A stretch of 64,000 bases of DNA from Balanoglossus misakiensis (lineage: Eukaryota > Animalia > Hemichordata). The DNA lies in the NCBI GenBank assembly GCA_040954595.2, contig CM082584.2, positions 2,945,344 through 3,009,343 on the forward strand, given 5' to 3'. The notes beneath the pieces are model-generated. The model ran no database searches and had not been told where the DNA came from. It saw nothing but the letters and a program-made list of their open reading frames with translations. Both the position numbers and the translations under genes were made by a program. Positions within the stretch are counted from its first letter, which is position 1. Every line of letters begins with the position of its first letter. Shown piece by piece: positions 34,501 to 62,117 of the stretch.

Positions 34501-34646
34501 ACCAGACCAGAGTGGACAGTATGCTGGCCATTAATTTTGAGTGTTTGGTGGGCTCAACCTTTGCGTCAACATTAACCAGAGCACACAGTAACCAGACCAG
34601 AGTGGACAGTATCCTGCCTATTAATTTTGAGTGACTTGTGGGTCAA
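28595..34646. repeat. 90-bp satellite array, ~67 copies, with higher-order variant patterns
   Basis: Unit TTTTGAGTGTTTGGTGGGGTCAACCTTTGCGTCAACATTAACCAGAGCACACAGTAACCAGGCCAGAGTGGACAGTATGCTGCCCATTAA with a strict 90-bp period. Confidence 0.98.
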
Positions 34647-36566: not shown

Positions 36567-37182
36567 GGCGTCGTTACAAGTTTAAGTTCATCCCTCCAGT
36601 ACAGTATTAGGTGGCGGCGTCGTTACAAGTATTAAGTTCATCCCTCCAGTACAGTATTAGGTGGCGGCGTCGTTACAAGTATTAAGTTCATCTCTCCAGT
36701 ACAGTATTAGGTGGCGGCGTCGTTACAAGTATTAAGTTCATCTCTCCAGTACAGTATTAGGTGGCGGCGTCGTTACAAGTATTAAGTTCATCCCTCCAGT
36801 ACAGTATTAGGTGGCGGCGTCGTTACAAGTATTAAGTTCATCCCTCCAGTACAGTATTAGGTGGCGGCGGCGTTACAAGTATTAAGTTCATCCCTCCAGT
36901 ACAGTATTAGGTGGCGGCGTCGTTACAAGTATTAAGTTCATCCCTCCAGTACAGTATTAGGTGGCGGCGTCGTTACAAGTATTAAGTTCATCTCTCCAGT
37001 ACAGTATTAGGTGGCGGCGTCGTTACAAGTATTAAGTTCATCTCTCCAGTACAGTATTAGGTGGCGGCGTCGTTACAAGTATTAAGTTCATCTCTCCAGT
37101 ACAGTATTAGGTGGCGGCGTCGTTACAAGTATTAAGTTCATCTCTCCAGTACAGTAATAGGTGGCGGCGTCGTTACAAATAT
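36567..37182. repeat. 50-bp minisatellite, ~12 copies
   Basis: CGTCGTTACAAGTATTAAGTTCATC(C/T)CTCCAGTACAGTATTAGGTGGCGG, near-identical units. Confidence 0.96.
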
Positions 37183-37508
37183 TACACTCCCTCTAGCAGC
37201 AGTGTTACCAATGAACCTAATATAAAAAAGAATGAAATTATTTTAAAAAACTGATTAGATCAAGTCATCATCATTGATAAAAAAACAATGATAAGAAGAA
37301 ATCATTTAAAAATTAAAGCTGCCAGCACCATTGGTGGGGCCCAAACAGTTCCCATTGTTACCAGGGTTAGTATGCCAAGGCTGTATTGTGCTGTGAATAC
37401 TAAGATATAGGAAAGCTGGTCAAAGGTTACCCTGGGGTCACTGAAAATCGCGTCAGGGACACTGTGGTCTCATTTAGTGATTACACTAAAAGAAGTCTAC
37501 ACAGGAGT

Positions 37509-37592: not shown

Positions 37593-40500
37593 GAAAACAT
37601 ACGTTGTCCTTGAGATCTTATGTATGCCGGCCGGGTACAATAGACAAACCAGCCAATTAATGAACATTTTGTACAAATACAGAGCTCAAAGTTGCATTTT
37701 AGTGAGCCCAAAAGCAAATTAGCTCAATGTTACGACAATTTTACTTATGCCACTCAAAGTTTGCATCGGTGGGGTGGGATGGCAAGTAGCCTGTCCTGGT
37801 ACAATAGACAAACCAGCCAATAAATGATATGTGGTGAAGAATGAAGGGGTGGGTGTGATTAGTACATTTTGTAAAAAAAAGACCTCGGAACTGTAATTTT
37901 GTGGGGCAAAAAGAATGGGATCCCCCCTTAAAGGTTTAAAAAAGAAGATGACCTCCGTCCCATTTGGATTTTAAAATTTAAAGCCCAAAGAAGTCGACTC
38001 ATCAATTCTAGAAAAGTAGACTTTTTTGCTAAAAATGATGAAAAAATGCATAAAAATAGAATATTCAAACTATTTGTTCAAAAAAAATATAGGACTGTAT
38101 GTGGTTGACATAAGGTACTTGCATACCAATTGTCAAATCAATCTGACCAGTGGTTGTCGAGTTTCTGAGTTTTGACCAATTTCAAATTGTCCCAGCTAAT
38201 TTGCATTAATTCAAAAAGTTTAACTGAATATGGCTGCCAGGTCAAATAACTGATTTGAATTTCAAGGTGCACACTCGTTGGCAAGGACAGCTGTGACAAA
38301 GTTTAGAAGCCTAGGTGTGGCAGCTTTTCAAAGCCAGGTGTGCAAAAAAAATCCAGGGAATGGGGCCCCAGCTCCTGAAAAAAACAGCACAATACCAAAA
38401 AGGGACTGATATTACTAACAAAATGTAAGCCTGTAAGAAGTCAAAAGCTGCACATCTTTTTACCACCTTGTGTCAGTACTAAGCAATAAGACTTTTTATA
38501 GAGTTGCTGTTTTAGTGGTCTTTGCAGATGCTAGAGATTAAAAAAGAAGATTTTCAGAAACAATGATAGCTATATCAATTACTGTTTGAAAAAATGTGAT
38601 GTTCACCACCTTGTTTTCAGAAAAGTATTTAAATAAATGTTTTTCCAAAGAGTTAAAACAAAGATTGGCAGCCATCTTGAATTTAAAAAAACTGCAACAA
38701 TATCCCATATGCAACAAATATGCAAATTATACTATTTGACAAGGGGTTTCAGAGAAGAGGACTACTCTTCAGACTCAGACATAAAATACTAATGCAATAT
38801 TCAGCAGAATTTAAAAAAAAATGACTAAGATCACTCAGGGACAATTCACAACAAAGATCGAAACAATTAGACGTACCAATTTTAAAGACCATTATGAAAA
38901 CTTTACAGATTCGGTCATAATGTAAACAAAGAATATCACCCCTGTGGACATGACAATCAGATATGCATATTCTAATATGATTTTTAGTCCAAATAAAAAG
39001 GCAACTGCCCCAAAATACAAAATTGCAGGTTATGTCACAAACCTCATGGAGATACATACTAAATTTCAGAGAAAATTCCCCCCCCCCCAAAAAAATATGC
39101 AAATTTCACCACATTTTGAAGAAACAACTTGCGTCATCCCTAGAAACTTGCATAGTCAAAGAAATCCTACAAGCTTATTTCTTCTGCCAAAAACAGCAAC
39201 AACTCGTTTCAAACTACAAATATGCCGAATTCAACACAATTTGAACACGCATTACTTCGCTACCCCCAGAAACCTGCATACCAAATTTGAAAGCACTTGC
39301 ACCAGTGATTTCAGAAAAGGAAAAGTGTTGACAGACATAGGATGACTGAACATCTATCTACCTGTCTGATAACATTTGCAGTGCTAAGAGCAGAGATTGG
39401 TGTTGTCTTTTCACATTTTAAATCATCACACTTTGCTTCTCAAAGCTACTATTCTGCTCTGCTTGAGAAATGACTTGGGACCATTTTTGGCAAACAATAG
39501 TCACTAATCTTCCTGAGTTTATAGTACAATGTACCTACACTGTTTTAGTAATGTACTGATTATGTTCAGACTATTTCTTGTGTCTGCATATGTCTTTATT
39601 ACAGAGGAATAATCTATCCGGTTGTCATTTCTCTGTTTACTCAGAAATAAACTAGTCTGGGTTGAAACAGTAGAAATTTTAAAATTGTCATACCTATTTC
39701 TGAAGAGAGTTCAAAACCAATACCTTGGGGAAGCATTATATCAAATTTGCTGGGTAACTGTGGATTTATAACTTTGGCTAATTACAATGCTAACTCACAC
39801 TGGATGATTCGATGGTATTTTTAGATTCAGATCAAAATATAAAGAACAGTACAAAGTGGCAAAATGGGATTGTTTTGTGAAAGCAAGTGGCTTGCATTGA
39901 GAGACAATAGGGTACTATACATAGGCCAAGTTGCTCAAAAAGCATGGAGAAATCACTTTTGATGAATGCATGGATGGGATGCGTTTCATTACTGTCAGTA
40001 TTAATTGTCTTTTTTCGTGGTCCAAGCAATACCTTCTAAATTGAAACCAGTTTTATCACTGCTTTTATCACAGTTTAGTTAACTTGAAATGAATATGGGT
40101 TATATCATTACTCATACCATTGGTGTTGTCTTATCATTTTTCACTGGAGATAGGAAGGCGAGATTGCGACTTACAGCATTAGATTATTACGTTTTGAACC
40201 CTTCTGTTATGACGGAAATAGTTTCAGCCTTTACTATTTAAGATAAGAATCCTTTGGAATCAGTCTGTATTTTCTCGGCAGATTTTTATTGAAAATAATA
40301 GTTTTATCGACAGTCACAAGCTGAGTACAACCAGAGTTTTGATCGGCTACCAGCTATTATCAACAAATAGTTTAAAAGATACGATTTTTGATGGAAAATT
40401 GCAAAAATTGCCCCAAGAACACAAATTTCACTAACATTTTACAACATCTTACTTGGGTAACCCCAAGGAACGTTCCAACCAAATTTAAAAGCAATCTGAC

Positions 40501-41582: not shown

Positions 41583-41684
41583 CAGAAAAAGGTACTTCAC
41601 GGGGCCGCAAGGGTCTTTAACATAGGGTCCAAGGTCTTCTCCCCCTCCTGCACAGCCTAATGATGACCATTTAAGACAGTCCAC
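41583..41684 (-). ncRNA. Exon B1 (102 nt), purine-rich arm GUGCAGGAGGGGGAGAAGACCUUGGACC
   Basis: tttgattcacag|GTGGAC...TTTCTG|gtaacc; complementary to A1. Confidence 0.68.
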
Positions 41685-42197: not shown

Positions 42198-42282
42198 CAG
42201 AAAGTAGTCTTAACCAAGCTTCAGCGCACAGGAGAACGAGAAACCCTGGACCAGTTGAAATTGCGACAATCATGGCTTCCAT
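42198..42282 (-). ncRNA. Exon A1 (85 nt), pyrimidine-rich arm GGUCCAGGGUUUCUCGUUCUCCUGUGC
   Basis: tactaac...tttcattcacag|ATGGAA...TTTCTG|gtaagc. Confidence 0.7.
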
Positions 42283-46600: not shown

Positions 46601-48001
46601 TGAAAGCAATTTGCCCAGTAGTTGTCGAGTTTCAGAGTTGACGAATTAGACACTTTCCCAGTTAATTTGCATATTTTGGCAATGACAACTTCATTTAGAC
46701 AAACTCCCATCTACCCCTGTGCCTGCATCTCCACACTAAATATCAAGGTTTCCAAGTGTTTGATGTTGACGGACATACAAACATCCATACATACATCAGG
46801 TGCAACTGATCCAATAAGGTCCCATGGTATAAATACAAATACCAAATGGGACATAACAATTCTGATAAAATGCCTACATAGCTAGTGTAAAAACACTTGT
46901 ACCTTCAACGCCCTTGGACAACACATTTTTGTAACTTCCCCAGATCAATGGCTAATATGACTTTCCAAAGGCGACTAAAATTTGGGGGGGGGGGGGGGGC
47001 TGATGCAAATTCTGATACATGTACTTCATGATTTAGAGAAATGGTGAAAATCCTGTCAACCAAATTACAGGGAAATCAGATTTTCCATGTAAAATCATAT
47101 CACCCAAAAATGTCAAAAGTGTCGAAAATAATTTTGAAACAAAAAGTCTACTCAAAATCATACCAAAATTTAAAGTTTAATGCAGTTGGGCAAGTAATTT
47201 GAGAATGAGGAAATTTACAAAATAATTTATAAATAATTTACAAATGCCGCACACAAACTTACAATTACTACCATGGTACCAGCAGAGACATTGCGATCGA
47301 GCAATCCCCAAGATATACATGACATGGTCTAATACAAATATTGAATATGTAAAATAAGTACACAACACTTCCAGTCTTTCAGTACAGTCAGCTGCTTGTG
47401 AACAATTTGCAGGTAGGTATTTCATCAAATTTACAGACCAAGTCATGCCTATACAATTCTCCCCTGAAATACGTTTTAAGCTACCCTAAGTGAGTGATGA
47501 AAATCTCATATTGTCGACAATTTCAAGATGGCCGATTTTTGCCATGTTAAAGAAATGGGAGTTCATAAGCTAAAGTGATAATGGGTCATTCTTGAACTTT
47601 TTAACAGAAAAAATAACAAAATGTGAAAAAAGTTTAATGAGTTTAATATGCTAACTACAGAGAACGACATGTTTGACCAAAGCATGAAATACAAAAAATG
47701 TATCATTTCTTCTATCTCTTACTACAGTGGGTTGTGGACTTTTCGCCCAGAATGCAATGTGATTTGACGCCTAGTGCAAAGTGAAAACCTATTTAAGGCA
47801 GCCAGAATGTTCTGCACAGTATGACGGGAAACATTTGTAAAGTCATGGCTAGCGTGGGCTGGTAAGTTTATGGGACTCTCCATGATAACCGATTGTGGCT
47901 TGCCACCACCATAATTTTGAAAGGGCGACTTCACTGTTTGATGGGAAAAGGTAGCATTTACAAACAAGCTATGGAGCATGTATACAGCAAGTTGTGCTTA
48001 C

Positions 48002-48074
48002 CGGAAAGCGGTCTTGGAAAAGGCCTAGGTATTCTCTTCCTCCTCCGGCATACGTTGAAATGCTGTGTTTAAGA
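48002..48074 (-). ncRNA. Exon B2 (73 nt)
   Basis: tactaat...tttgattcacag|TCTTAAAC...TTTCCG|gtaagc. Confidence 0.7.
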
Positions 48075-49258
48075 CTGTGAATCAAATATATGCAAATATT
48101 AATTAGTAACCAATCAACTTTGTTTTAGAATTATGTGGGCCATACTAATTAGTGAAAATATGCAAAACATGGTATAATGTACGGTCAGACTGTGCTGCGA
48201 TAATGTACAACAGTGGAATACGTCGATCTTAAAACTCCATTTACATCAGTACTGCAGTAAAGTGGTCCACATGGGTATATACCCCAAACATTGCAATTAG
48301 GTGACAACTGAAACTGACATGATATCAGATTCTGTAAATGACAGAAGGTGTACACGCACTTTGACATCTATGTAACACTGTACAATGATTTCTTTGTTTG
48401 TTGTGAAAATGAAACTTGCATTTGATCCATCTCACTTTTCATACAACTGATTAGCATAAGAATGTACATTGTTGGCAATTATAAAACATTTATTTAAGTA
48501 TAGAAAAGTAAGCCTTAAAATTTAAACTTTAAATATCAGTATACTAAAATGTTTCAAACGTGGCTGTTAGTATATCTCATATACGTGGTGGCGGAAGTAG
48601 ATGTTGTTACCAGGGAAGACATATTGAACACAGACAAGCCCAATAGTCGCTTGGTGATTTTTTATCTTTATAAAGATTCTCAAAACTTTTTGTGCATTTA
48701 GTAGCTTTGAGCAAGTTTCTGGTACTGATCAGATTTCCGAATTCAGGACTGCGCTTCTCTGGCTTTGGTCACCATCAGCCAATGTGATCCTACGCACACA
48801 TTTTTGAAGAAAAAAAATCCAGCCTGTTTGTGTCATGATTTATATTTTCTTTGCGGCCTAAGGTATTGTTTTATTTCACTCTAAACAACATTACTTTCCT
48901 TCATGTGTCTATACATAATAATAGATCTCTTAGCCAGTTTGATTAAGCATGGTGTTGGACTAGCACACTTTCAGCCAAAGTTACGGTATCTCCCTGTGTA
49001 TTGATATGGGAGTAATTTCTAGCTATATGGTTAAGGAAATGCATCCAAATTTAATTTATGCATCACATGAAGATTTGAACTTGACCATTTAATTCATGTC
49101 ATCACGATCATATCACAGGCAATCGAGGCCAGAATTCGAAGGGAAAAAAAAGTATTGATAACTGGAATGTGTAAATTAGTTCGTAGACATACAAATTGCT
49201 TCCTATTGCTTCGGTTGCAAAGCCCGATAAAAGCAAATATATAGCAAGTCATGCTTAC

Positions 49259-49333
49259 CATTGAGCGGTCTTAAACTCGCCCCAGACGAGGAAGAGAATC
49301 CTGAGTTGAAATGCAGGCAATCTCAGGCAGCAT
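49259..49333 (-). ncRNA. Exon A2 (75 nt)
   Basis: tactaac...tttgattctcag|ATGCTG...CAATG|gtaagc. Confidence 0.7.
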
Positions 49334-52300
49334 CTGAGAATCAAATAGACCTAGAAGTTAGTAACCAGTCATAGTAGCTCTAAGTTGGATGTAAAAGTCT
49401 AAGTTGGGTGTACCAACTCACCTTGTTAACAGTAACTTTCAAAGAAACTGGGCAATTGGTTCAAGAGAAGATTTGCTATCAAAAAACAAAGAATTTACAA
49501 CAAAACTACCTAAATATTAAAAACCAGACTTTAATAAAAGTCGCACATACAGGTACATGTGTTATGAAATTGTAAACCAACTTCTAAAGCAATCAGAAAA
49601 AAAATTTGGGTTACCCCTAGGAATTTTCCTACCATATTTCAAAGCCATCAAAAAAGCAGTTTCAAAGAAAAACACATTTGTTCAAAAGTGGCAAAAACAC
49701 AAATATGCAAAAATCACTATAATTGTACACCATCTTACTTCAATGACTACAAGGAACATTCCTGCCAAAGTTCAAAGCAACCAGACAACGGTTTGAACGT
49801 TTTCAGAGAAAACAGTTTTTGACAAAGATTGCATAAAATATCTCCAAATAAGACAAAGATGAAGTTTTAACCATTTTTAAGACATCTCACTTGGGTTACC
49901 CCTGGGAATCTGCCTACCAAATTGCAAAGCATTCTGACCAAAATTGGCATAATTGCTCAAAATTATAAATATGCCCATTTTACAACAATCTGAAAAAAAA
50001 TATGGTAACTCGGACCACCTATAGGAAGCTTCATACTAAATTTCGAAGGAGTCGGACTATCGCTTTCAGAAGTGAAGATTTTTTTACCAATAATTTGGAA
50101 AAAGACAAAAAATTAATAAACATTAGAAAATTCATAATATTAGCTCAAAGCATACAGGACTGTATGGGGTTTATTGACATACAAGTTTTCAGATCAATCT
50201 GACCAGTGGTTGCTGAGTTTCTGACTTTTGACCAATTTCACATTTTCACAGGTAATACTTTTGGCAATGGCAACCTCATTTGAACAAAATCCCATCTACA
50301 GCCCCGCCTTCATCTACACACTAAAAATGGAAGTGATATGCACAGCAGTTTTCATCCGTTCATCCATACATACAGATGCAAGTCATTCCATAGGGTCCCA
50401 ATCGTATATATATATATACACAAACCAAATGCCATGGGACCTAAAAATTGCTACACAATTAAAATACACAAATTTTGCAACACTTTAATCAAAACTATGG
50501 TAACTCAGATCACCTGCGAAGCTTCATACTAAATTTCAAACAAGTCAGCTGATCAATTCCAGAAAAGTAGATTTTTTACCGATAATGTGGAAACAAAAAA
50601 TGTAAAACATTGGAAATTCACATAAGCTGACAACATAAAGGGCTGTGTGAGGTTACTATAAGGTACATGCATATCAATTTTCAATTTTTAAAGCAATTTA
50701 CCCAGTAGTTTTTGAGTTCCTCAGTTTTGACAAATTTGACACTTTCCCAGCTCACTTGCATATTTTGGCAATGACAACTTCATTTAGACAAACTCCCACC
50801 TACTGCCTTGCCTGCATCTCCACACTAAATATCAAGGTCACACGCCAGTAGTTTCCAAATGTTTGATGTTGATGGACATACAGACAAACAGCCATACAGA
50901 CATCCATACATACAGGTGCAACTGATCCTGTAAGGTCCCATGGTATAAATACATATACCAAACGGGACCTAATAATTTTAATAAAATGCCTTCATAGCTA
51001 GTGTAAAAACCACTTGTACCTTCAACGTGCTTGGACAACACATTTTTGTAACTTTCCCAGATCAATGGCTAATTTTTTTTTGGGGGGGAGGGGGCGATGC
51101 AATTCTGATACATGTACTTCATGATTTAGAGATCTGGTGAAAATCCTGTCAACCGAATTACAGGGAAATCAGATTTTCCATGGAAAATCATTTTACCAAA
51201 AAATTTCAAAAAGTGTAGAAAATAAATTTGAAACAGAAAGCCTACTCAAAATCATACCAAAATTTAAATTTTAATGCAGTTGGGCAAGCAATTTGAGAAT
51301 GAAGAAACTTAGAAATAATTTATAAATTGAAAATAATTTACAAATGCTTCACACAAACTTACAATCACTACCATATTACTGTACAAGTTAAAAGGACATT
51401 GTACCAGCAGAGACATTGCGATCGAGCAATCCCCAAGATATACATGACATGGTCTAATTACAAATATTGAATATGTAAAATAAGTACACAACACTTCCAG
51501 TCTTTCAGTACAGTCAGCTGCTTGTGAACAATTTGCAGGTAGGTATTTCATCAAATTTACAGACCAAGTCATGCCTATACAATTCTCCCCTGAAATAAGT
51601 TTTAAGCTACCCTAAGTGAGTGATGAAAATCTCATACGGTCGACAATTTCAAGATGGCCGATTTTTGCCATGTTAAAGAAATGGGAGTTCATATGCTAAA
51701 GTGATGATGGGTAATTCTGGGACTTTTTAACAGAAAAAATAACAAAATGTGAAAAACAGTTTAATGGGTTTAATATGCTAACTACAGAGACAGACATGTT
51801 TGACCAAAGGAAGTCATGAAATACAGTAAACATATCATTTCTTCTATCTCTTACTACAGTTGGTTATGGACTTTCCGCCTTGAATGCAATGAGATTTGAC
51901 CCCCTAGCGCAAAGTGAAAACCTATTTAAAGCAGCCAGAATTTTCTGCATAGTATGACGGAAACATTTGTAAAGTCATGGGTAGCATGGGTTGGCAGGTT
52001 TATGGGACCCTGCTCATGTTCCCTCGAATAAAACATGATACATGTTTGGTGACTTATTATTCTGTATTTGTTGATTTTGTCATATTTTCAGATAAATCCC
52101 TATCAATCAGTCATATTTGTTGGCCTTGCTATACAGCGAAATATAAATCTTGTTGACTGAAATTGTTGAGGATAGTGTTACATAAAGGTTACCCATTGGA
52201 AAATATTAAAATGATTATTAGTGGTGTCCAACTCTTCATGATAACCAGTTGTGGCTTGCCACCACCATAATTTTGAAAGGGCGACTTCACTGTTTGATGG

Positions 52301-52357
52301 GAAAAGGTAGCCTTTACAAACAAGTTATGGAGCATGTATACAGCAAGTTGTGCTTAC

Positions 52358-52430
52358 CGGAAAGCGGTCTTGGATCAGGCCTAGGTATTCTCTCCCTCCT
52401 CCGGCATACGTTGAAATGCTGTGTTTAAGA
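52358..52430 (-). ncRNA. Exon B3 (73 nt)
   Basis: Paralog of B2 with intact splice sites. Confidence 0.68.
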
Positions 52431-52996
52431 CTGTGAATCAAATATATGCATATTAATAAGTAACCAATCAACCTTGCTTTGGAATTATGTGGGCAATACT
52501 AAATAGTGAAAATATGCAAAACATGGTATAATATAGGGTCAGAAAAAATATCCAGCCTGTTTGTGTCATGATTTACATTTTTCTTTCTGACCTAAATTAT
52601 TGTTTTTGTCACTTTAAACAACATTACTGTCCTTCATAAGTCTAATATGATAATAGACTTCTTAGCCAGTTTGATTAAGCATGGTGTTGGACTAGCGCAT
52701 GTTCAGCCAAAGCTACAGTATCTCCCTGTGTATTGGTATGGGAGTAATTTTAGCTATATGTTTAAAGAAATGCATCCAAATTTATTCTATGCTCCATGTG
52801 AAGATTTGAAATTGTGAGTTGTCCATTTAATTCATGTCATCACTACCATATCACAGGCAATCAAGGCCAGAATTCGAAGGGGAAAAAACAAGTATTGAAA
52901 TCTGGAATGTGTAAATTAGTTCGTAGACATACATTGCTTCCTATTGTACCGTTTGCAACGCGTGATAAAAGCAAATATATAGCACGTCATGCTTAC

Positions 52997-53071
52997 CATT
53001 GAGCGGTCTTAAACTCGCCTCGGACGAGGAAGAGAATCCCGAGTTGAAACGCAGACATTTTCAGGCAGCAT
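52997..53071 (-). ncRNA. Exon A3 (75 nt)
   Basis: Paralog of A2 with TACTAAC (plus-strand 53095-53101) and intact splice sites. Confidence 0.68.
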
Positions 53072-55962
53072 CTGTGAATCAAATAGACATAGAAGTTAGT
53101 AACCAGTCATAGTAGCTCTATTAAAAACCAGACTTTAATAAAAGTCGCACATACAGGTACATGTGTTATGAAATTGTAAACCAACTTCTAAAGCAATCAG
53201 AAAAAAAATTTGGGTTACCCCTAGGAATTTTCCTACCATATTTCAAAGCCATCAAAAAAGCAGTTTCAAAGAAAAACACATTTGTTCAAAAGTGGCAAAA
53301 ACACAAATATGCAAAAATCACTATAATTGTACACCATCTTACTTCAATGACTACAAGGAACATTCCTGCCAAAGTTCAAAGCAACCAGACAACGGTTTGA
53401 ACGTTTTCAGAGAAAACAGTTTTTGACAAAGATTGCATAAAATATCTCCAAATAAGACAAAGATGAAGTTTTAACCATTTTTAAGACATCTCACTTGGGT
53501 TACCCCTGGGAATCTGCCTACCAAATTGCAAAGCATTCTGACCAAAATTGGCATAATTGCTCAAAATTATAAATATGCCCATTTTACAACAATCTGAAAA
53601 AAAATATGGTAACTCGGACCACCTATAGGAAGCTTCATACTAAATTTCGAAGGAGTCGGACTATCGCTTTCAGAAGTGAAGATTTTTTTACCAATAATTT
53701 GGAAAAAGACAAAAAATTAATAAACATTAGAAAATTCATAATATTAGCTCAAAGCATACAGGACTGTATGGGGTTTATTGACATACAAGTTTTCAGATCA
53801 ATCTGACCAGTGGTTGCTGAGTTTCTGACTTTTGACCAATTTCACATTTTCACAGGTAATACTTTTGGCAATGGCAACCTCATTTGAACAAAATCCCATC
53901 TACAGCCCCGCCTTCATCTACACACTAAAAATGGAAGTGATATGCACAGCAGTTTTCATCCGTTCATCCATACATACAGATGCAAGTCATTCCATAGGGT
54001 CCCAATCGTATATATATATATACACAAACCAAATGCCATGGGACCTAAAAATTGCTACACAATTAAAATACACAAATTTTGCAACACTTTAATCAAAACT
54101 ATGGTAACTCAGATCACCTGCGAAGCTTCATACTAAATTTCAAACAAGTCAGCTGATCAATTCCAGAAAAGTAGATTTTTTACCGATAATGTGGAGACAA
54201 AAAATGTAAAACATTGGAAATTCACATAAGCTGACAACATAAAGGGCTGTGTGAGGTTACTATAAGGTACATGCATATCAATTTTCAATTTTTAAAGCAA
54301 TTTACCCAGTAGTTTTTGAGTTCCTCAGTTTTGACAAATTTGACACTTTCCCAGCTCACTTGCATATTTTGGCAATGACAACTTCATTTAGACAAACTCC
54401 CACCTACTGCCTTGCCTGCATCTCCACACTAAATATCAAGGTCACACGCCAGTAGTTTCCAAATGTTTGATGTTGATGGACATACAGACAAACAGCCATA
54501 CAGACATCCATACATACAGGTGCAACTGATCCTGTAAGGTCCCATGGTATAAATACATATACCAAACGGGACCTAATAATTTTAATAAAATGCCTTCATA
54601 GCTAGTGTAAAAACCACTTGTACCTTCAACGTGCTTGGACAACACATTTTTGTAACTTTCCCAGATCAATGGCTAATTTTTTTTTGGGGGGGGAGGGGGC
54701 GATGCAATTCTGATACATGTACTTCATGATTTAGAGATCTGGTGAAAATCCTGTCAACCGAATTACAGGGAAATCAGATTTTCCATGGAAAATCATTTTA
54801 CCAAAAAATTTCAAAAAGTGTAGAAAATAAATTTGAAACAGAAAGCCTACTCAAAATCATACCAAAATTTAAATTTTAATGCAGTTGGGCAAGCAATTTG
54901 AGAATGAAGAAACTTAGAAATAATTTATAAATTGAAAATAATTTACAAATGCTTCACACAAACTTACAATCACTACCATATTACTGTACAAGTTAAAAGG
55001 ACATTGTACCAGCAGAGACATTGCGATCGAGCAATCCCCAAGATATACATGACATGGTCTAATTACAAATATTGAATATGTAAAATAAGTACACAACACT
55101 TCCAGTCTTTCAGTACAGTCAGCTGCTTGTGAACAATTTGCAGGTAGGTATTTCATCAAATTTACAGACCAAGTCATGCCTATACAATTCTCCCCTGAAA
55201 TAAGTTTTAAGCTACCCTAAGTGAGTGATGAAAATCTCATACGGTCGACAATTTCAAGATGGCCGATTTTTGCCATGTTAAAGAAATGGGAGTTCATATG
55301 CTAAAGTGATGATGGGTAATTCTGGAACTTTTTAACAGAAAAAATAACAAAATGTGAAAAACAGTTTAATGGGTTTAATATGCTAACTACAGAGACAGAC
55401 ATGTTTGACCAAAGGAAGTCATGAAATACAGTAAACATATCATTTCTTCTATCTCTTACTACAGTTGGTTATGGACTTTCCGCCTTGAATGCAATGAGAT
55501 TTGACCCCCTAGCGCAAAGTGAAAACCTATTTAAAGCAGCCAGAATTTTCTGCATAGTATGACGGAAACATTTGTAAAGTCATGGGTAGCATGGGTTGGC
55601 AGGTTTATGGGACCCTGCTCATGTTCCCTCGAATAAAACATGATACATGTTTGGTGACTTATTATTCTGTATTTGTTGATTTTGTCATATTTTCAGATAA
55701 ATCCCTATCAATCAGTCATATTTGTTGGCCTTGCTATACAGCGAAATATAAATCTTGTTGACTGAAATTGTTGAGGATAGTGTTACATAAAGGTTACCCA
55801 TTGGAAAATATTAAAATGATTATTAGTGGTGTCCAACTCTTCATGATAACCAGTTGTGGCTTGCCACCACCATAATTTTGAAAGGGCGACTTCACTGTTT
55901 GATGGGAAAAGGTAGCCTTTACAAACAAGTTATGGAGCATGTATACAGCAAGTTGTGCTTAC

Positions 55963-56035
55963 CGGAAAGCGGTCTTGGATCAGGCCTAGGTATTCTCTCC
56001 CTCCTCCGGCATACGTTGAAATGCTGTGTTTAAGA
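55963..56035 (-). ncRNA. Exon B4 (73 nt), same sequence as B3
   Basis: 3605-bp offset duplicate. Confidence 0.66.
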
Positions 56036-56601
56036 CTGTGAATCAAATATATGCATATTAATAAGTAACCAATCAACCTTGCTTTGGAATTATGTGGGCA
56101 ATACTAAATAGTGAAAATATGCAAAACATGGTAAAATATAGGGTCAGAAAAAATATCCAGCCTGTTTGTGTCATGATTTACATTTTTCTTTCTGACCTAA
56201 ATTATTGTTTTTGTCACTTTAAACAACATTACTGTCCTTCATAAGTCTAATATGATAATAGACTTCTTAGCCAGTTTGATTAAGCATGGTGTTGGACTAG
56301 CGCATGTTCAGCCAAAGCTACAGTATCTCCCTGTGTATTGGTATGGGAGTAATTTTAGCTATATGTTTAAAGAAATGCATCCAAATTTATTCTATGCTCC
56401 ATGTGAAGATTTGAAATTGTGAGTTGTCCATTTAATTCATGTCATCACTACCATATCACAGGCAATCAAGGCCAGAATTCGAAGGGGAAAAAACAAGTAT
56501 TGAAAGCTGGAATGTGTAAATTAGTTCGTAGACATACATTGCTTCCTATTGTACCGTTTGCAACGCGTGATAAAAGCAAATATATAGCACGTCATGCTTA
56601 C

Positions 56602-56676
56602 CATTGAGCGGTCTTAAACTCGCCTCGGACGAGGAAGAGAATCCCGAGTTGAAACGCAGACATTTTCAGGCAGCAT
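56602..56676 (-). ncRNA. Exon A4 (75 nt), same sequence as A3
   Basis: 3605-bp offset duplicate. Confidence 0.66.
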
Positions 56677-56879
56677 CTGTGAATCAAATAGACATAGAAG
56701 TTAGTAACCAGTCATAGTAGCTCTGCGTAGCAGGGCTGCGTGTTAACAGCTATGCCATAGCTGACACTGGTAGCTTATAACAGTCTCGATGGTGCCAAAA
56801 ATCTCCCCAACAACAAAACTAATTCTGGTCAGTTTATTCGCTATCGCTTTGCCTTAAAAGTTATACTGTAGTGTGTTTC

Positions 56880-57300
56880 CACAGGGGGCTCTCCCTCCGC
56901 GATTTTATTGTTTGTTTGTTTGTTTGTTGTTGTTGTTGTTGTTGTTGATTGGCATTATAAACAAATACATATTTCTTTATTAATAAATATGGTTTGTTGA
57001 CATGTAAGTGTTAGGGAATATTCAACGGTTAGCATTAGTGTTGGCACTTTTTTCGATCTACGGCCCCGGGCATCACTAAGCCACGAAGAGAGGGTGATGC
57101 TGGCCGTGGATCGCAAAAATGCCAACACTAATACTAACAGTTGAATATACCATAACCTGTCAAATATACCCTAATAACCTAACCCTTACATGTCAACCAA
57201 CCATATTTATTGACAAAGAAATATGTATTTGTTTATAATGCCAATCAACAACAACAACAAACAAACACACAATAAAATTGCGGAGGGAGAGCCCCCTGTG
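56880..57300. mobile_element. 421-bp foldback MITE, CACAG termini, imperfect 7-bp TSD (P-superfamily-like)
   Basis: CACAGGGGGCTCTCCCTCCGC...GCGGAGGGAGAGCCCCCTGTG with most of the element palindromic; flanks GTGTTTC (56873-56879) and GTGTTAC (57301-57307). Confidence 0.88.
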
Positions 57301-57545
57301 GTGTTACGGTACCACCTGCCCCACAATGACAAAGCTGACTCGAGGCCACGAACGACGTACAATTTACTCGCACGGTGTAAAACAACGCATGAATTCCATG
57401 CGACTGTGAGTTTACTGTTCGGCGCTGTAACGCTTCCCAAAGTCAGAATTTCGATGTTGGGATGACACTGTCGCCCTACCACTACCAGTTTTTGCAAGAA
57501 GGAGTGTACATGTACTTGTAAAATAACATTAAATGCCATGCTTAC

Positions 57546-57660
57546 CAGAGAAACGACATCATCAAGCATGGAGGCGACCGGGACCTCCATGCTTGATGAA
57601 CGTCGAAGCTGCAATGATTTTTCAAATGCAACGGTCAGCGGGACGAGAACGAGGCAGCAC
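57546..57660 (-). ncRNA. Exon H (115 nt) with self-contained ~21-bp hairpin
   Basis: aactaat...cag|GTGCTGCC...TTTCTCTG|gtaagcatg. Perfect 15-bp inverted repeat CATCAAGCATGGAGG (57560-57574) / CCTCCATGCTTGATG (57584-57598), extended by flanking pairs. Confidence 0.62.
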
Positions 57661-60254
57661 CTGCTCGTCAATTATGCAAATTAGTTACTACTCAATCAGA
57701 ATCTTGCTTTCGCATTCTAATTAGTCAAAGTATGCAGTGCAACGTTTGTGTGCGGGTGGAGAATGCGCCTCGCCAACTGATGAATTCTCTGTCACGGCGT
57801 TCTTTGGAAGTGCGATTATGTAACCGATTATCTCATTAGGGACATAGATAATATATTTTGTCTTCTTCAATTTGTTTGTACTACGAAAACAATTGCGAAA
57901 CGAATAGCAAGCGCTTACGCTATGAAACGTAAATAAATATCAGTTATGGCCATGTAGAAACGGAACGTCAATCCGCATTTGTCAAAAAATAATAGAAAAG
58001 ACAAAGAAGCTGAGGGGAATGACCTCCGTTCTGACCTATCTGGGGAAGGCCTATTGCAATACGCAATATGTCAGATCATGCTACCATCCGCCATTCTGAT
58101 TGGACGAGAGCTCAATCCATCGATACGAAAGTACTCAATAGAGCACTGCTGAAACTGGCCCTGAACTAATCGCATGCAACAGGGAAAACGCGACCTTTCA
58201 AATCAAATAAATACAAAAAATACAGCCAATGAATTTACGGCCGGCCGGTTTATTTCTTAACTGCTCTATAGGAATTGTTGTCACTGCCATGGACCACTTC
58301 GCGGATAGCATAACACAGGGTGTTGTGGGACAGTTTGCGTTCTGAGCGCGTGCATTAGCCATGCAGTAGACGCTATGTTGAACGCAAATTATACCATCAT
58401 GCATTGCAGATACCCTATCCGCGTAGTGGTCTATGCACGATGCATGTCTTGTCAGTGCGCACTCGACAAATTGGACCGTTTCTATAAAAAATATGAACTG
58501 TGACTTTTGATTTTATTGAGAAATATCTCTCGAATTAAACCATGTAACGTAAATCAAGGAAATGTATTCTGCTAAAGTTGCTCCTGACGGGTTCGCTGAA
58601 ACATTGTGTTATTGGTAAAATACGTCAAGTGTAAAATATTGAGTTACCTAATATGATAAAATATCAGATTTATGTGTTTAATCAAGATAGGCCTCTCTTC
58701 ATATGTTTCATTTATTTGGTTTGAATAAAGGTTATCTGATTCAGTTTCATGAAGTATACACGGCTTAAATGTTTATCCACTGTAGTGCCACTGAAATGGC
58801 TTTCACGTTTGAGACTTCGGGCGGTAATCTTATATTTACTTTCTTCATTTCTATTGGAGTAGACTACACCGGGGTCGACCTAAAATATCTATAAGCAATG
58901 CGCAATGGGAGTATTTCAGCCGTGATGACCGGACGATGTCGGACAAAGTCTACAACTTAATACACGATCCCCTCCAATTTGCATATGTCCATAAATGGCT
59001 AAACTTGCGTATCCTAGTGTTCTAAAGAACAAATGGTGGCGCTCTTATTGTCGCGTGTGCCACCTCCTGAATATCTGTGATTGGCTGTATCTCAATTTGC
59101 CATGGTAACAGTAGCTAAATTTGCATAGGTTACCGTATACCTTTAAGGCACGTCAAGCGTATGTCCTTGTTGGGCTGTCTGACAGGAACGAATCGAGACC
59201 CACCGCACAGTCACGCAATGATGAAATCCACATCGCCAAAAACGATGTTTCACTAGACTCGGGTACATGCAACTATCTCATGCCATTTACAGAATTGAAC
59301 ACCCCAGGCAATGTTACGTGTTGCTCCATGACTGTTGCTCCATGACCAACCAAACAGCAAACAACAAACTCATGTCCAAACCAATGCAACTCATTGCATT
59401 AAACAATATAGATGGGGATCCCAAAGAATAATTCAAATATATTTGCAGAATTGCCACGCAAGTCGGGCATATTGTCCAAATTTAAGCACTCTGCAACTGA
59501 AACATAAAACCCAAGCTTTTTACAATACAGGAATTAAAAATTCTGATTGAATTAATGCCAACATAAAACGAAAAAAGACAACTCACAAAATGTATATGTA
59601 GTGTTTCATGTAGCGTTTTGATCTCAAGAAGATATGAAAAAATCGTCGGGGGAAAAGCAGGTGAGAACATCACCTCATTTTTGGGATATGAAATAAAAGT
59701 CTATTTTACGGAGACACGTGGTAAAAAGTCCACCCTAGTCTCAATTTTCCAGACCCCTCTGGGATAGTCGAGTAGTCCATCCCCATGAAACTGCATATTT
59801 TAAAATAGCCAAAATGAGTCAATGGGGCATTTTTTCATCCTACCTCAACCTTGCTAAGAGTTTCCGTGCCAGTCACCTGCAAAAATTAAATTTACCACGG
59901 ACAAATTGAAATACAGCCAATCGAAAAAAGTGCGCCACCACATGGTCATTTGAAGACTTTGATGCTCTCTTCTGGCCGTAACCGCATGTGATCCGGAATA
60001 AAATTGAGCCTTGATCGCGTTTTTTATTTTATTTTCACCACCAACGAAAATCTACGACGGCCCAACCGCAGATTATTGCTGCTCCATACAACAACCGGCT
60101 TATACTGTACATAAGTTTTGTGTTCTGGTGGCATTTGCGGGTCTGAGACGTCATTTCTAGAAGGCCCTATTCGTTTTATACCAATAACTTTTACCACCCA
60201 TGCTGGATTTTTTACGTTTTCTTTGACGACGCTTGACCCTTTTCTTGCTTTGTT

Positions 60255-60307
60255 GTAGTCTTGGTTACCCAGATGCCTTTGCAAAGGCGAATGGGTAACA
60301 GAGACCA
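60255..60307. mobile_element. Tiny palindromic element
   Basis: GTC...GTTACCCA / TGGGTAAC...GAC arms around the inner palindrome GCCTTTGCAAAGGC. Confidence 0.55.
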
Positions 60308-60445
60308 GCTTTGTTGTTGGTAGTTTGTTTGTTCGTAACGTCTGTAACTGGGATTCTTCACTTGTGGAATATACTGCTTATTTCTTGTGTATCTGCATTT
60401 TGTTGATGCTGTCGCTCCTCTGGCAGTGAAGCAAGGGTGCTAGCT

Positions 60446-60702
60446 GGGACTGTTCAGGATTTACTTCCGGGGGGCGGAGGATTTTCAGGAGGGACCGCCC
60501 ATTTTCTCCAAGAACAATTTAGGGAGGAATAGACATAAAAATCACAATCCTTTTGGGGGGACCATGGAAAAACCCCAGGAAATTTAAGGGGTACAACAGA
60601 TTTCCTCCACAATTTACTGGGGGTACGTCCATGGAAAAAACAATCACCAGGAAAATAAAAAATCCTCCGGCCCCACCCTGGAAGTAAAATCTGAACAGTC
60701 CC
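60446..60702. mobile_element. MITE with ~40-bp imperfect TIRs (PIF/Harbinger-like, tentative)
   Basis: GGGACTGTTCAGGATTTACTTCC...CGGAGGATTTT / AAAATCCTCCG...GGAAGTAAAATCTGAACAGTCCC; TSD not clearly preserved. Confidence 0.8.
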
Positions 60703-61695
60703 TAACTTTTGTTTGTTTGTTTGCTTGTTTATTTGTCTGTCTGTTTGTGTATTCTATATTATGTTATATGAAGCTTCTGCTACATTTTGCATTTCCTTTT
60801 GCATAAACAATGACTAAACCGACTGGAGCGCGTTTGGGCGCAGGATAGATTTGAGAGTTAATCCATCTGTGTTTACCGGCTAAAACCGTTCGATTTTTGC
60901 AACAAGTGAGACCGTAGTAGTAATCCGAAGGCCAGTCAGTGCATGTTTGCATGACTGGCGTGTAGTGATACCTACCACAAAATGGTATCGCCCAAATAAT
61001 GTTTGCCGGAATTTATAAGCCTGGCGCTCTCCTAACAAGTCGTCATGTTCGCCCTCGTAGTCATGCTGCCAGTCGGGGAAAATGACGTACTTCATGTAAA
61101 AGTTTATAAAAAATAAACCAAATTTCACTGCCATGTATCCCAAAACAATTTATGTGACAGATTTTTAAAAAGAACACTAACTTCGGCTAAGGAATGTCAA
61201 GTCATAGCTCCGCGTTCAGGTCTGTGTGTTCCCCACGCACCACAGCCCTGCATAAGGCCCCATAGACAAAACTGGTGCGCTTGCGGTCCGGACCCGGACG
61301 CCCGACCGCAGCTTTTTCTGTCGAAATTCGATTTTATCGAAGCAAAATCCTTTCCCTTATTACTTCAACCGACCCCAAATATGATGCGTTTAACTTCTTC
61401 TAACGTCCGTGTAACGCCGGGAACACACAGACCTGCACGCAGAGCTAGTCAAATCAGTGCACTGTGCAGTCGGTCGGTACACTCTGCTGGTGTATACAAA
61501 CGATCGTGGCGACAGAATCTCTCCCTGGGACGGCCTTACACAAATTTAATCGATTGTCTAACAATTTTACTGCGACTTGTTGCCACGTCTTATACATTTC
61601 GTTGACCGGTGGAATATAGAGGTTCAGTCGTCACGCTGAACTGGCTCGAAACCATTCCCCACGCTGATTCGACTCTCGCGCCCGGGATATATGTC

Positions 61696-62117
61696 TGTGG
61701 TAGCTCCATGGTAACAACCGTAAGGGGCCAGGTCATGTGATTGTGGGTTGCCTATCATTTGCTATAAGGCGCCTTCTGATTGGTTTATATTCCCACTAAA
61801 TCTCGTAGAGTTCAGCGGGATCTCCATTGAGAGTTGGTCAGATGTAGTGTGAGGCGACAGCATAAAAAACAAGTCGCCGTTCCCTACATCTGATTTTAAT
61901 CAGATTGTGGTGGCTCCATGGTAACAACCCAAGGGGCTAGGTCATGTGATTGTGGGATGCCTATCGTTTGCTATAAGGCGCCTTCTGATTGGTTTATTCG
62001 CCCAGTAAATCCCGTCGATTTCAACGGGAGCTCCAGTGAGAGTTGGTCAGATGTAGTGTGAGGCGACAGCATAAAAAAACCACGTCGCCGTTACCTACAT
62101 CTGATTTTAATCAGATT
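61696..62117. repeat. 211-bp tandem duplication, each copy ending in a hairpin
   Basis: TGTGGT.GCTCCATGGTAACAACC... at 61696 and 61907. Confidence 0.92.

What the first reader, a model, noticed from the sequence alone, without database searches (positions are those of the whole stretch)
48002..49333. An apical stem is completed exactly across the A|B splice junction
Seen: spliced A2|B2 (also A3|B3 and A4|B4) reads GUUUAAGAC-CGCUCAAU-G|UCUUAAAC, a perfect 9-bp stem with an 8-nt loop. Its 3' strand is built from the last base of exon A plus the first 8 of exon B. The divergent pair 1 has the equivalent UUAAGAC...|...GUCUUAA (7 bp) plus a middle helix AGCUUGG/UUAGGCU. Both versions leave a 10-12-nt bulge on the 3' side between the apical and long stems. 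Inference: the architecture (long stem, 3' bulge, junction-capped stem) is conserved while the sequence is not. Either the compact hairpin exists only after splicing, or the pairing juxtaposes donor and acceptor to direct A-to-B splicing.
Basis: partly seen in the sequence, partly recalled or inferred. Interest (0 to 1): 0.8.

Follow-up and report, generated by a model that had tools for sequence, protein, structure and literature searches.

The report
Hairpin arms split across paired exons
An animal genome carries four pairs of short exon-like segments whose sequences match each other, so that splicing would likely join each pair into one RNA hairpin, likely a source of small regulatory RNAs; this layout is documented mainly in plants, and no RNA data confirm it here.

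Summary
The letters are right; the headline is overstated. Nine related exon-like units (X0, A4/B4 to A1/B1) lie on the minus strand at 41.6-57.7 kb, with conserved branch, acceptor and donor signals and no shared reading frame. Joined A|B folds into a 19-26-bp stem plus an apical stem. The 9-bp apical stem beats shuffles (25 of 20,000) and is predicted at P 0.96-0.99.

But exon A supplies only 1 of the 9 bases of its 3' strand. The intron's own AG offers the same G before splicing, and in pair 1 the strand lies wholly inside exon B. The 'conserved 3' bulge' rests on helices with P of 0.22 or less.

What holds is wider. The arms of pair 1 and pair 2 have co-diverged (1-13 of 1,000 simulations), pair 1 favours G-U over A-C 11 to 2, and the junction always sits in the terminal loop. 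Best reading: a spliced non-coding RNA with intron-split hairpins, likely small-RNA precursors (0.42), working like plant miR444/miRtop14 or fly tandem hairpin RNAs. The stems fail the canonical 35-bp Drosha test. Splicing, expression, small RNAs and orthologues are unverified.

The parts
57546..57660 (-). X0: predicted 115-nt exon, paralogous to A and B, holding both arms of its own hairpin
   Evidence: nhmmer with the A profile E 0.002; fold z -6.0, 0 of 200 shuffles, but the opposite strand folds as well
57554..57605 (-). X0 self-contained hairpin, 22 pairs at P>0.5, 7-nt loop
56602..56676 (-). A4: predicted 75-nt exon, identical to A3
55963..56035 (-). B4: predicted 73-nt exon, identical to B3
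52997..53071 (-). A3: predicted 75-nt exon; long-stem arm 53021-53040, apical strand 53006-53014
52358..52430 (-). B3: predicted 73-nt exon; long-stem arm 52383-52403, apical strand 52423-52430
49259..49333 (-). A2: predicted 75-nt exon; perfect TACTAAC branch site 30 nt upstream; donor 9.1 bits
49282..49302 (-). A2 pyrimidine-rich arm of the long stem (20 pairs at P>0.5: 19 Watson-Crick, 1 G-U)
49268..49276 (-). A2 5' strand of the 9-bp apical stem
48075..49258 (-). Predicted 1,184-nt GT-AG intron inside the hairpin loop of pair 2 (566 nt in pairs 3 and 4, 513 nt in pair 1); its last G can stand in for the last G of A2
48067..48074 (-). First 8 nt of B2: 8 of the 9 bases of the apical 3' strand
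48002..48074 (-). B2: predicted 73-nt exon; purine-rich long-stem arm 48027-48048; donor 10.7 bits, acceptor 3.8 bits
42198..42282 (-). A1: predicted 85-nt exon; arm 42226-42252; apical strand 42207-42213
41583..41684 (-). B1: predicted 102-nt exon; arm 41626-41653 (26 pairs with A1: 20 Watson-Crick, 6 G-U); apical strand 41671-41677, 7 nt inside the exon
49515..56724 (.). Recent tandem duplication of a 3.6-kb unit giving pairs 3 and 4 (99.86% identical); pair 2 unit about 86-94% identical to them
57700..62000 (-). CpG-rich zone upstream of X0 with CCAAT, octamer and YY1-like motifs: possible promoter region, start site unknown
   Evidence: motif labels recalled; inference only

Best explanation
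This is likely a spliced non-coding gene whose paired exons carry complementary arms, so that splicing would put each A exon next to its B exon as one compact hairpin, likely cut into about one small silencing RNA per pair. SHOWN in sequence or by calls: nine paralogous units with splice-type signals; A:B complementarity of 19-26 bp; co-divergence of the arms; the junction in the terminal loop in all pairs; no common reading frame. INFERRED: minus-strand transcription from a CpG-rich region above 57.7 kb; removal of a 0.5-1.2-kb intron shrinks the loop to 8-16 nt; the apical stem caps each junction locally. The family likely arose from a single-exon hairpin like X0: after tandem duplication the pairing moved from within one exon to between neighbouring exons, and the A-B block was then copied three more times. 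UNTESTED: cleavage by a Dicer-type or non-canonical Microprocessor route, the product, and its target. The broader claim 'selection acts on RNA pairing between A and B' is firmer (about 0.75) than the small-RNA step.
For: Splice signals: 8 of 9 donors score 9.1 bits or more on a generic matrix, against 0.9% of 3,997 minus-strand GT sites at 8 or more; 4 of 4 A units have a 7/7 branch site. Across X0, A1, A2, B1 and B2 the invariant letters cluster at acceptor CAG and donor -1 to +7. Paralogy: the A profile finds B2-B4 at E 4e-9 to 4e-10, B1 at 0.001 and X0 at 0.002. Folding: A|B z -2.5, -3.3, -3.2, against +0.4 (A2|A1), +0.8 (B2|B1) and +1.3 (A2|B1). Co-divergence: cognate minus cross arm energy is -21.5 kcal/mol, reached in 1-13 of 1,000 simulations in each of 12 settings. 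Strand: pair 1 has 11 G-U to 2 A-C in a strand-neutral alignment (P 0.011) and folds at -65.2 on minus versus -49.2 on plus. Duplex sizes are 26, 20, 19 and 22 pairs (X0), about one small-RNA duplex each. CpG o/e is 0.42 over 37.5-57.7 kb versus 0.87 above, and the minus strand is T-rich over the same span, as expected of a transcribed, methylated gene body. Precedents: intron-split miR444 and miRtop14, where splicing is needed for processing (PMC11706861); tandem hairpins in one transcript with fast copy-number change (hp-CG4068, PMC10317233).
Against: No stem reaches the ~35 bp that Microprocessor prefers (PMC7174388), and a 5 x 18-nt internal loop separates the long and apical stems in pair 2. 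G-U bias is seen only in pair 1: pair 2 gives 5 to 3 and pair 3 gives 5 to 6, and pair 2 and X0 fold slightly better on the plus strand. The co-divergence signal comes mostly from B1 (A1 -47.4 versus A2 -27.4); B2 barely tells A2 from A1 (-35.4 versus -33.9), the arm windows were chosen by eye, and only two independent pairs exist. B|A joins also fold well (z -2.75 and -2.39). In the full 746-nt model the long stems of pairs 2-4 choose their own partner only at P 0.23-0.47. Exons are no better conserved than their flanks (B1/B2 exon 0.47 versus flanks 0.67-0.80 with gaps counted). The X0 acceptor is weak (0.8 bits), as are those of B2-B4 (3.8 bits; 16% of AG sites reach 3). No target in the window (best 15 of 19).
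Confidence: 0.42

Rival explanations
1. The spliced RNA is not cut into small RNAs. It works whole, as a structured long non-coding RNA or a long 5' leader whose 19-26-bp duplexes bind double-stranded-RNA proteins (ADAR, Staufen-type or innate sensors), or as small circles of A plus B.
For: The stems are too short and too interrupted for canonical Drosha cleavage (PMC7174388). A related 10-11-nt motif precedes the arm in A1-A4, B2-B4 and X0, which gives a pseudo-symmetric duplex that could be a protein site. Circular A+B also folds better than shuffles (z -2.3 to -3.1).
Against: The basal closure needed for a rod-like circle differs in register between pairs 2 and 3. B1 lacks the shared motif. 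No Rfam family matches.
Confidence: 0.2
2. The pairing acts in the pre-mRNA: A:B pairing bridges the intron and couples inclusion of A and B as a cassette.
For: The long stem forms across the intron in all three unspliced models, and the apical stem forms at P 0.87 in unspliced pair 3 using the acceptor G. Long-range pairing is known to modulate splicing (PMC2724269, PMC8052449; search listing and start of abstract only).
Against: The apical stem is about P 0.1 in unspliced pair 2 and is replaced by another helix in unspliced pair 1. It would bury the 3' splice site. No downstream product that needs coupled inclusion was found.
Confidence: 0.15
3. The complementarity is a DNA-level relic. A self-complementary exon or repeat was duplicated, and inversion or conversion between arms keeps them matched without selection on RNA. 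The locus may be silent or its RNA inert.
For: A and B are paralogous and also align as inverted copies over most of their length. The region is full of tandem duplications and mobile elements. Exons are not more conserved than flanks. The simulation null does not include conversion between arms.
Against: DNA-level matching predicts equal G-U and A-C; pair 1 shows 11 to 2. Branch, acceptor and donor letters persist in units whose farther flanks align at only 0.32-0.55.
Confidence: 0.18
4. The units are mutually exclusive protein-coding cassettes.
For: X0 (115), A+B (148) and A1+B1 (187 nt) are all 1 modulo 3, and X0, pair 2 and pair 3 are open in the same frame.
Against: A shared open frame arises in 9% of shuffles. 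Pair 1, with the best helix, has 2 or more stops in every frame. Six of 9 changed codons between pairs 2 and 3 alter the residue. No Pfam hit for the three exon peptides, and 0 hits at E<=0.001 among 1.84 billion proteins for the X0 peptide.
Confidence: 0.05

Closest known systems
Intron-split plant miRNAs: miR444 family and miRtop14 (PMC11706861; abstract, introduction, start of methods and passages read)
   Same: 5' and 3' arms on separate exons with a 0.5-1.2-kb intron in the loop (about 700 bp between arms for miRtop14); splicing gives the compact hairpin.
   Different: Animal genome; an array of four pairs plus a single-exon hairpin in one predicted transcript; the two exons are paralogues of each other; no small RNA or target shown. 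That paper knows of no such genes outside these two plant families.
Inc-miRs of C. elegans (Zhang, Maniar and Fire 2011, PMC3182020; not held, seen only as a title and one citing sentence in PMC12219410)
   Same: Shows that an animal miRNA hairpin interrupted by an intron can still be processed after splicing.
   Different: The citing sentence describes an intron introduced into a canonical hairpin. Whether the paper reports natural cases I could not read. The stems here are not canonical.
Drosophila hairpin RNAs: hp-CG4068 tandem cluster, hp-tHMG cluster, mini-Tmy complex (PMC10317233 and bioRxiv 10.1101/2021.08.05.454923; passages read)
   Same: Spliced, polyadenylated non-coding precursors; tandem hairpins from one transcript; fast change in copy number and sequence; mini-Tmy has four local copies of a ~130-bp inverted repeat.
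   Different: Those derive from, and match, target genes and need Dicer-2. Here each duplex is only 19-26 bp, each arm is its own exon, and no source or target gene was found in the window.
Canonical animal pri-miRNA (PMC7174388; passages read)
   Same: A duplex of about 22 bp within a longer transcript; polycistronic layout.
   Different: No ~35-bp stem; large internal loop; 16-18-nt single-stranded stretch on the 3' side; hairpin split by an intron.
Mirtrons (recalled; search listings)
   Same: Splicing creates the hairpin substrate.
   Different: In mirtrons the hairpin is the excised intron; here it is made of the joined exons.

Membership tests
Intron-split miRNA (miR444 / miRtop14 type) | The two arms of the hairpin lie on different exons with an intron in the loop | tested here: met
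   Met in sequence, with predicted splice sites.
Intron-split miRNA (miR444 / miRtop14 type) | A spliced primary transcript exists | not testable with these tools
Intron-split miRNA (miR444 / miRtop14 type) | One precise small-RNA duplex is excised and loaded | not testable with these tools
   Needs small-RNA sequencing.
Intron-split miRNA (miR444 / miRtop14 type) | A complementary target transcript | tested here: inconclusive
   Only the 64-kb window could be searched; best match 15 of 19 outside the units; no whole genome is held.
Canonical animal pri-miRNA (Microprocessor substrate) | Stem of about 35 bp between basal and apical junctions | tested here: not met
   Continuous stems of 26, 20, 19 and 22 pairs; criterion from PMC7174388.
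Canonical animal pri-miRNA (Microprocessor substrate) | Basal UG, mGHG, apical UGU and CNNC motifs at set distances | not tested
   Without a ~35-bp stem no cleavage register could be fixed.
Drosophila-type hairpin RNA (endo-siRNA precursor) | Inverted repeats in a non-coding transcript, often in tandem copies | tested here: met
   Four A:B pairs plus X0; no shared reading frame.
Drosophila-type hairpin RNA (endo-siRNA precursor) | siRNA output that depends on the RNAi Dicer | not testable with these tools
   Needs knockdown and small-RNA data.
Drosophila-type hairpin RNA (endo-siRNA precursor) | Arms homologous to a source or target gene | tested here: inconclusive
   None in the window.
Mirtron | The hairpin is the excised intron | tested here: not met
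   Both arms are inside the predicted exons.
Any curated Rfam family | Match at the family's gathering score | tested here: not met
   0 matches in the window; none of 7 weak matches at E<=5 overlaps a unit. Only unspliced DNA could be scanned.

The most novel reading that the evidence does not exclude
A natural animal gene in which small-RNA precursors are assembled by splicing from one-arm exons. A single-exon hairpin was duplicated and domain-swapped so that each exon keeps one arm; splice choice and partner choice then decide which duplex, and which silencing RNA, is made, and the arms co-evolve quickly as in a genetic conflict.
Probability: 0.2. Interest if true: 0.85.

Novelty: new variant of a known kind. 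Interest (0 to 1): 0.55.

Why it matters
Small-RNA annotation folds contiguous DNA, so hairpins whose arms sit on separate exons are missed. The one paper found on natural intron-split miRNAs lists only two plant families (PMC11706861; searches listed no natural animal case, but the library lacks most subscription papers and the C. elegans inc-miR paper could not be read). A natural animal array would show a hidden class and a route by which splicing gates small-RNA output. The locus also preserves a possible evolutionary series (single-exon hairpin, split pair, tandem copies), and it gives a cheap genome-wide search rule: paralogous adjacent exons with complementary cores.

Tried and rejected
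No whole genome is held for this window, so copies and targets elsewhere are unexamined.

No RNA holder was listed for 47900-57800; this is no evidence either way, and no reads could be laid.

Orthologue scans found nothing: two patterns in metagenome contigs and one in viral contigs, 0 matches each. These collections are not expected to hold this animal.

Rfam: 0 matches at gathering score; 7 weak matches in 39-62 kb, none on a unit. Earlier scan findings: nothing by place, words or sequence.

More units: a matrix trained on the units ranks the nine at 52.8-65.3 and the next site at 21.6 (circular, used only to look for further copies). nhmmer shows only an insignificant relic at 47432-47524 (E 0.42).

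A plus-strand spliced gene: exon-like sites occur at similar rates on both strands (13 listed on plus; the minus list was cut at 20), so it was not adopted.

Coding cassettes were rejected. Box C/D or H/ACA snoRNA, hammerhead and spliced-leader readings of the units were considered by eye from recalled motifs and dropped: box order or core motifs do not fit, and each unit has an acceptor. The circular-RNA reading was tested by folding only. PMC6211395 (passages) and PMC4604436 (reference list only) added nothing. No supplementary files were read.

Full report
SETTING. The window is AT-rich animal DNA. It holds a Helitron with LINE insertions at 3-25 kb, a 90-bp satellite at 28.6-34.6 kb, and the locus at 41.6-57.7 kb. 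The only organism named among the 120 listed relatives of the LINE protein is the acorn worm Glandiceps talaboti (3 hits, 44-56% identity). The host may therefore be an acorn worm or another marine invertebrate; a transposon at this distance does not settle it. No whole genome is held.

ANATOMY. Nine exon-like units lie on the minus strand. In transcript order: X0 57546-57660, A4 56602-56676, B4 55963-56035, A3 52997-53071, B3 52358-52430, A2 49259-49333, B2 48002-48074, A1 42198-42282, B1 41583-41684. On a generic matrix (recalled frequencies, not trained here) 8 of 9 donors score 9.1-10.7 bits and B1 scores 6.4; 0.9% of 3,997 minus-strand GT sites reach 8. All four A units have a perfect TACTAAC 30 nt upstream. 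Acceptors are mixed: 6.7-7.4 for A1-A4 and B1, 3.8 for B2-B4, 0.8 for X0. A, B and X0 are paralogues (nhmmer E 4e-10 to 0.002). Among X0, A1, A2, B1 and B2 the invariant letters cluster at the splice sites, while farther flanks between unit types align at 0.32-0.55. CpG o/e is 0.42 over 37.5-57.7 kb and 0.87 above it, and the minus strand is T-rich over the depleted span. That fits a methylated gene body with a promoter above X0, but a second CpG-rich zone at 35-37 kb means CpG alone does not fix the direction. Pairs 3 and 4 are a near-identical tandem copy (5 differences in 3,606 columns), possibly very recent or an assembly duplicate.

THE OBSERVATION. The 9-bp stem with an 8-nt loop is there. 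It arose in 25 of 20,000 shuffles, and its closing pair has P 0.96-0.99. In the full 746-nt model the apical stems form at P 0.99, 1.0, 0.99 and 0.79. The headline is weaker than stated. Exon A gives one base, the usual last G of an exon, and the acceptor AG gives the same G before splicing (27 of 20,000). In the unspliced pair 3 model that pair forms at P 0.87. Exon B alone gives 8 bp (152 of 20,000). In pair 1 the 3' strand is B1 nt 8-14; an 8-nt indel separates it from pairs 2-4, and since B1 starts like X0 and A the shorter state is likely derived. The 7-bp core is letter-identical between pairs 1 and 2 while the loop letters differ: conservation, not covariation. The middle helices behind the 'conserved bulge' have P 0.17-0.22, 0.14-0.17 and 0.00. 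What is shared by all pairs is a long stem, an apical stem, and a junction in the terminal loop.

THE LONG STEM. A|B folds at z -2.51, -3.33 and -3.20 (4, 1 and 0 of 300 shuffles); A2|A1, B2|B1 and A2|B1 give +0.41, +0.81 and +1.34. A1|B2 (-2.9) and the reverse joins B3|A2 and B4|A3 (-2.75, -2.39) also fold well, so folding alone does not pick the partner. Stems have 26 (20 Watson-Crick, 6 G-U), 20 (19, 1) and 19 (17, 2) pairs at P>0.5; X0 has its own 22-pair hairpin. Arm duplex energies are A1:B1 -47.4, A2:B2 -35.4, A1:B2 -33.9 and A2:B1 -27.4. The cognate advantage of -21.5 kcal/mol was reached in 1-13 of 1,000 runs in each of 12 simulations of independent decay from a perfect repeat. Caveats: the windows were chosen by eye, the signal rests mostly on B1, and conversion between arms was not modelled. 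A strand-neutral alignment of A1 with B1 gives 11 G-U to 2 A-C (P 0.011), pointing to selection on minus-strand RNA; pairs 2 and 3 show no such bias (5 to 3, 5 to 6). Of 4 stem substitutions between pairs 2 and 3, 3 keep the pair (read), which is too few to weigh. The long stem also forms in unspliced models of all three pairs. In the full model the near-identical pairs 2-4 swap long-stem partners (own partner P 0.23-0.47).

CODING TEST. The three cassette lengths are 1 modulo 3, and X0, pair 2 and pair 3 share an open frame. A shared frame arises in 9% of shuffles, pair 1 has 2 or more stops in every frame, and 6 of 9 changed codons alter the residue. Pfam and a search of 1.84 billion proteins with the X0 peptide gave nothing.

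MECHANISM. I infer a spliced non-coding RNA. Splicing would shrink each loop from 0.5-1.2 kb to 8-16 nt and leave duplexes about the size of one small-RNA duplex. A and B are both direct paralogues and inverted copies of each other, and X0 holds both arms. The simplest history is a self-complementary exon that was duplicated, with pairing moved between neighbours. Small-RNA output (0.42) is my committed reading. Rivals: the RNA works whole (0.20), DNA-level relic (0.18), control of splicing in the pre-mRNA (0.15), coding (0.05).

COMPARISON. It works like the intron-split plant miRNAs miR444 and miRtop14, where an unspliceable gene gave almost no miRNA (PMC11706861; abstract, introduction, start of methods, passages). 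It also resembles Drosophila tandem hairpin RNAs (PMC10317233; bioRxiv 10.1101/2021.08.05.454923; passages). An intron placed in a C. elegans miRNA hairpin is tolerated (citing sentence in PMC12219410; the original was not held). It is not a canonical pri-miRNA: the ~35-bp stem (PMC7174388, passages) is missing. It is not a mirtron, and it matches no Rfam family. Membership in the first two kinds cannot be decided without small-RNA data. Searches listed no natural animal intron-split case; one search listed nothing on acorn-worm small RNAs that bore on it (listing only). Supplements were not read and may list such cases.

VERDICT. Observation partly confirmed; interpretation partly supported. 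The junction coincidence is minor. The paired, co-diverging exon array is real in sequence and unusual, but rests on two independent pairs in one window with no RNA evidence. New variant of a known kind; interest 0.55.

Noticed in passing
window 39550-39671 (+): Weak full-length match to the H/ACA snoRNA family SNORA28 (28.8 bits, E 0.23, gathering score 65), with an H-box-like motif and a terminal ACA; fold z -1.7. May be chance or an intronic snoRNA of a plus-strand host.
   Followed up: partly
window 56879-57301: Long inverted repeat (arms of 46, 83 and 42 nt, 88-96% complementary) in the intron between X0 and A4; looks like a miniature inverted-repeat element.
   Followed up: no
window 49305-49314 and 48054-48063 (-), with copies in pairs 3 and 4, A1 and X0: A 10-11-nt motif (GCATTTCAAC-like) lies just 5' of the arm in both A and B2-B4, unpaired or weakly paired, giving a two-fold symmetric duplex; B1 lacks it.
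   Followed up: partly
window 47432-47524, 51558-51633, 55163-55238 (-): Possible decayed extra unit in each repeat block (nhmmer E 0.42-0.59; not significant). A 15-of-19 match to the A1 arm lies at 47814.
   Followed up: partly
window 3252-25500: Helitron (Rep domain, two PIF1 helicase pieces, endonuclease) with a plus-strand reverse transcriptase frame and a minus-strand LINE inside; duplicated blocks 8913-10410/16050-17545 and 14404-15967/18739-20302. A spliced plus-strand gene appears to lie at about 23.5-26.1 kb (seen by eye).
   Followed up: partly
window 28595-34646; 460-2408; 36567-37184: Tandem arrays: 90-bp satellite of about 6 kb with long open frames on both strands; a short-unit array; a 50-bp array.
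   Followed up: no
window 47383-47412 and 47728-47861 (+), first also at 51509 and 55114: Strong plus-strand acceptor and donor pairs inside the repeated block; similar sites occur at comparable rates on both strands, so likely chance.
   Followed up: partly
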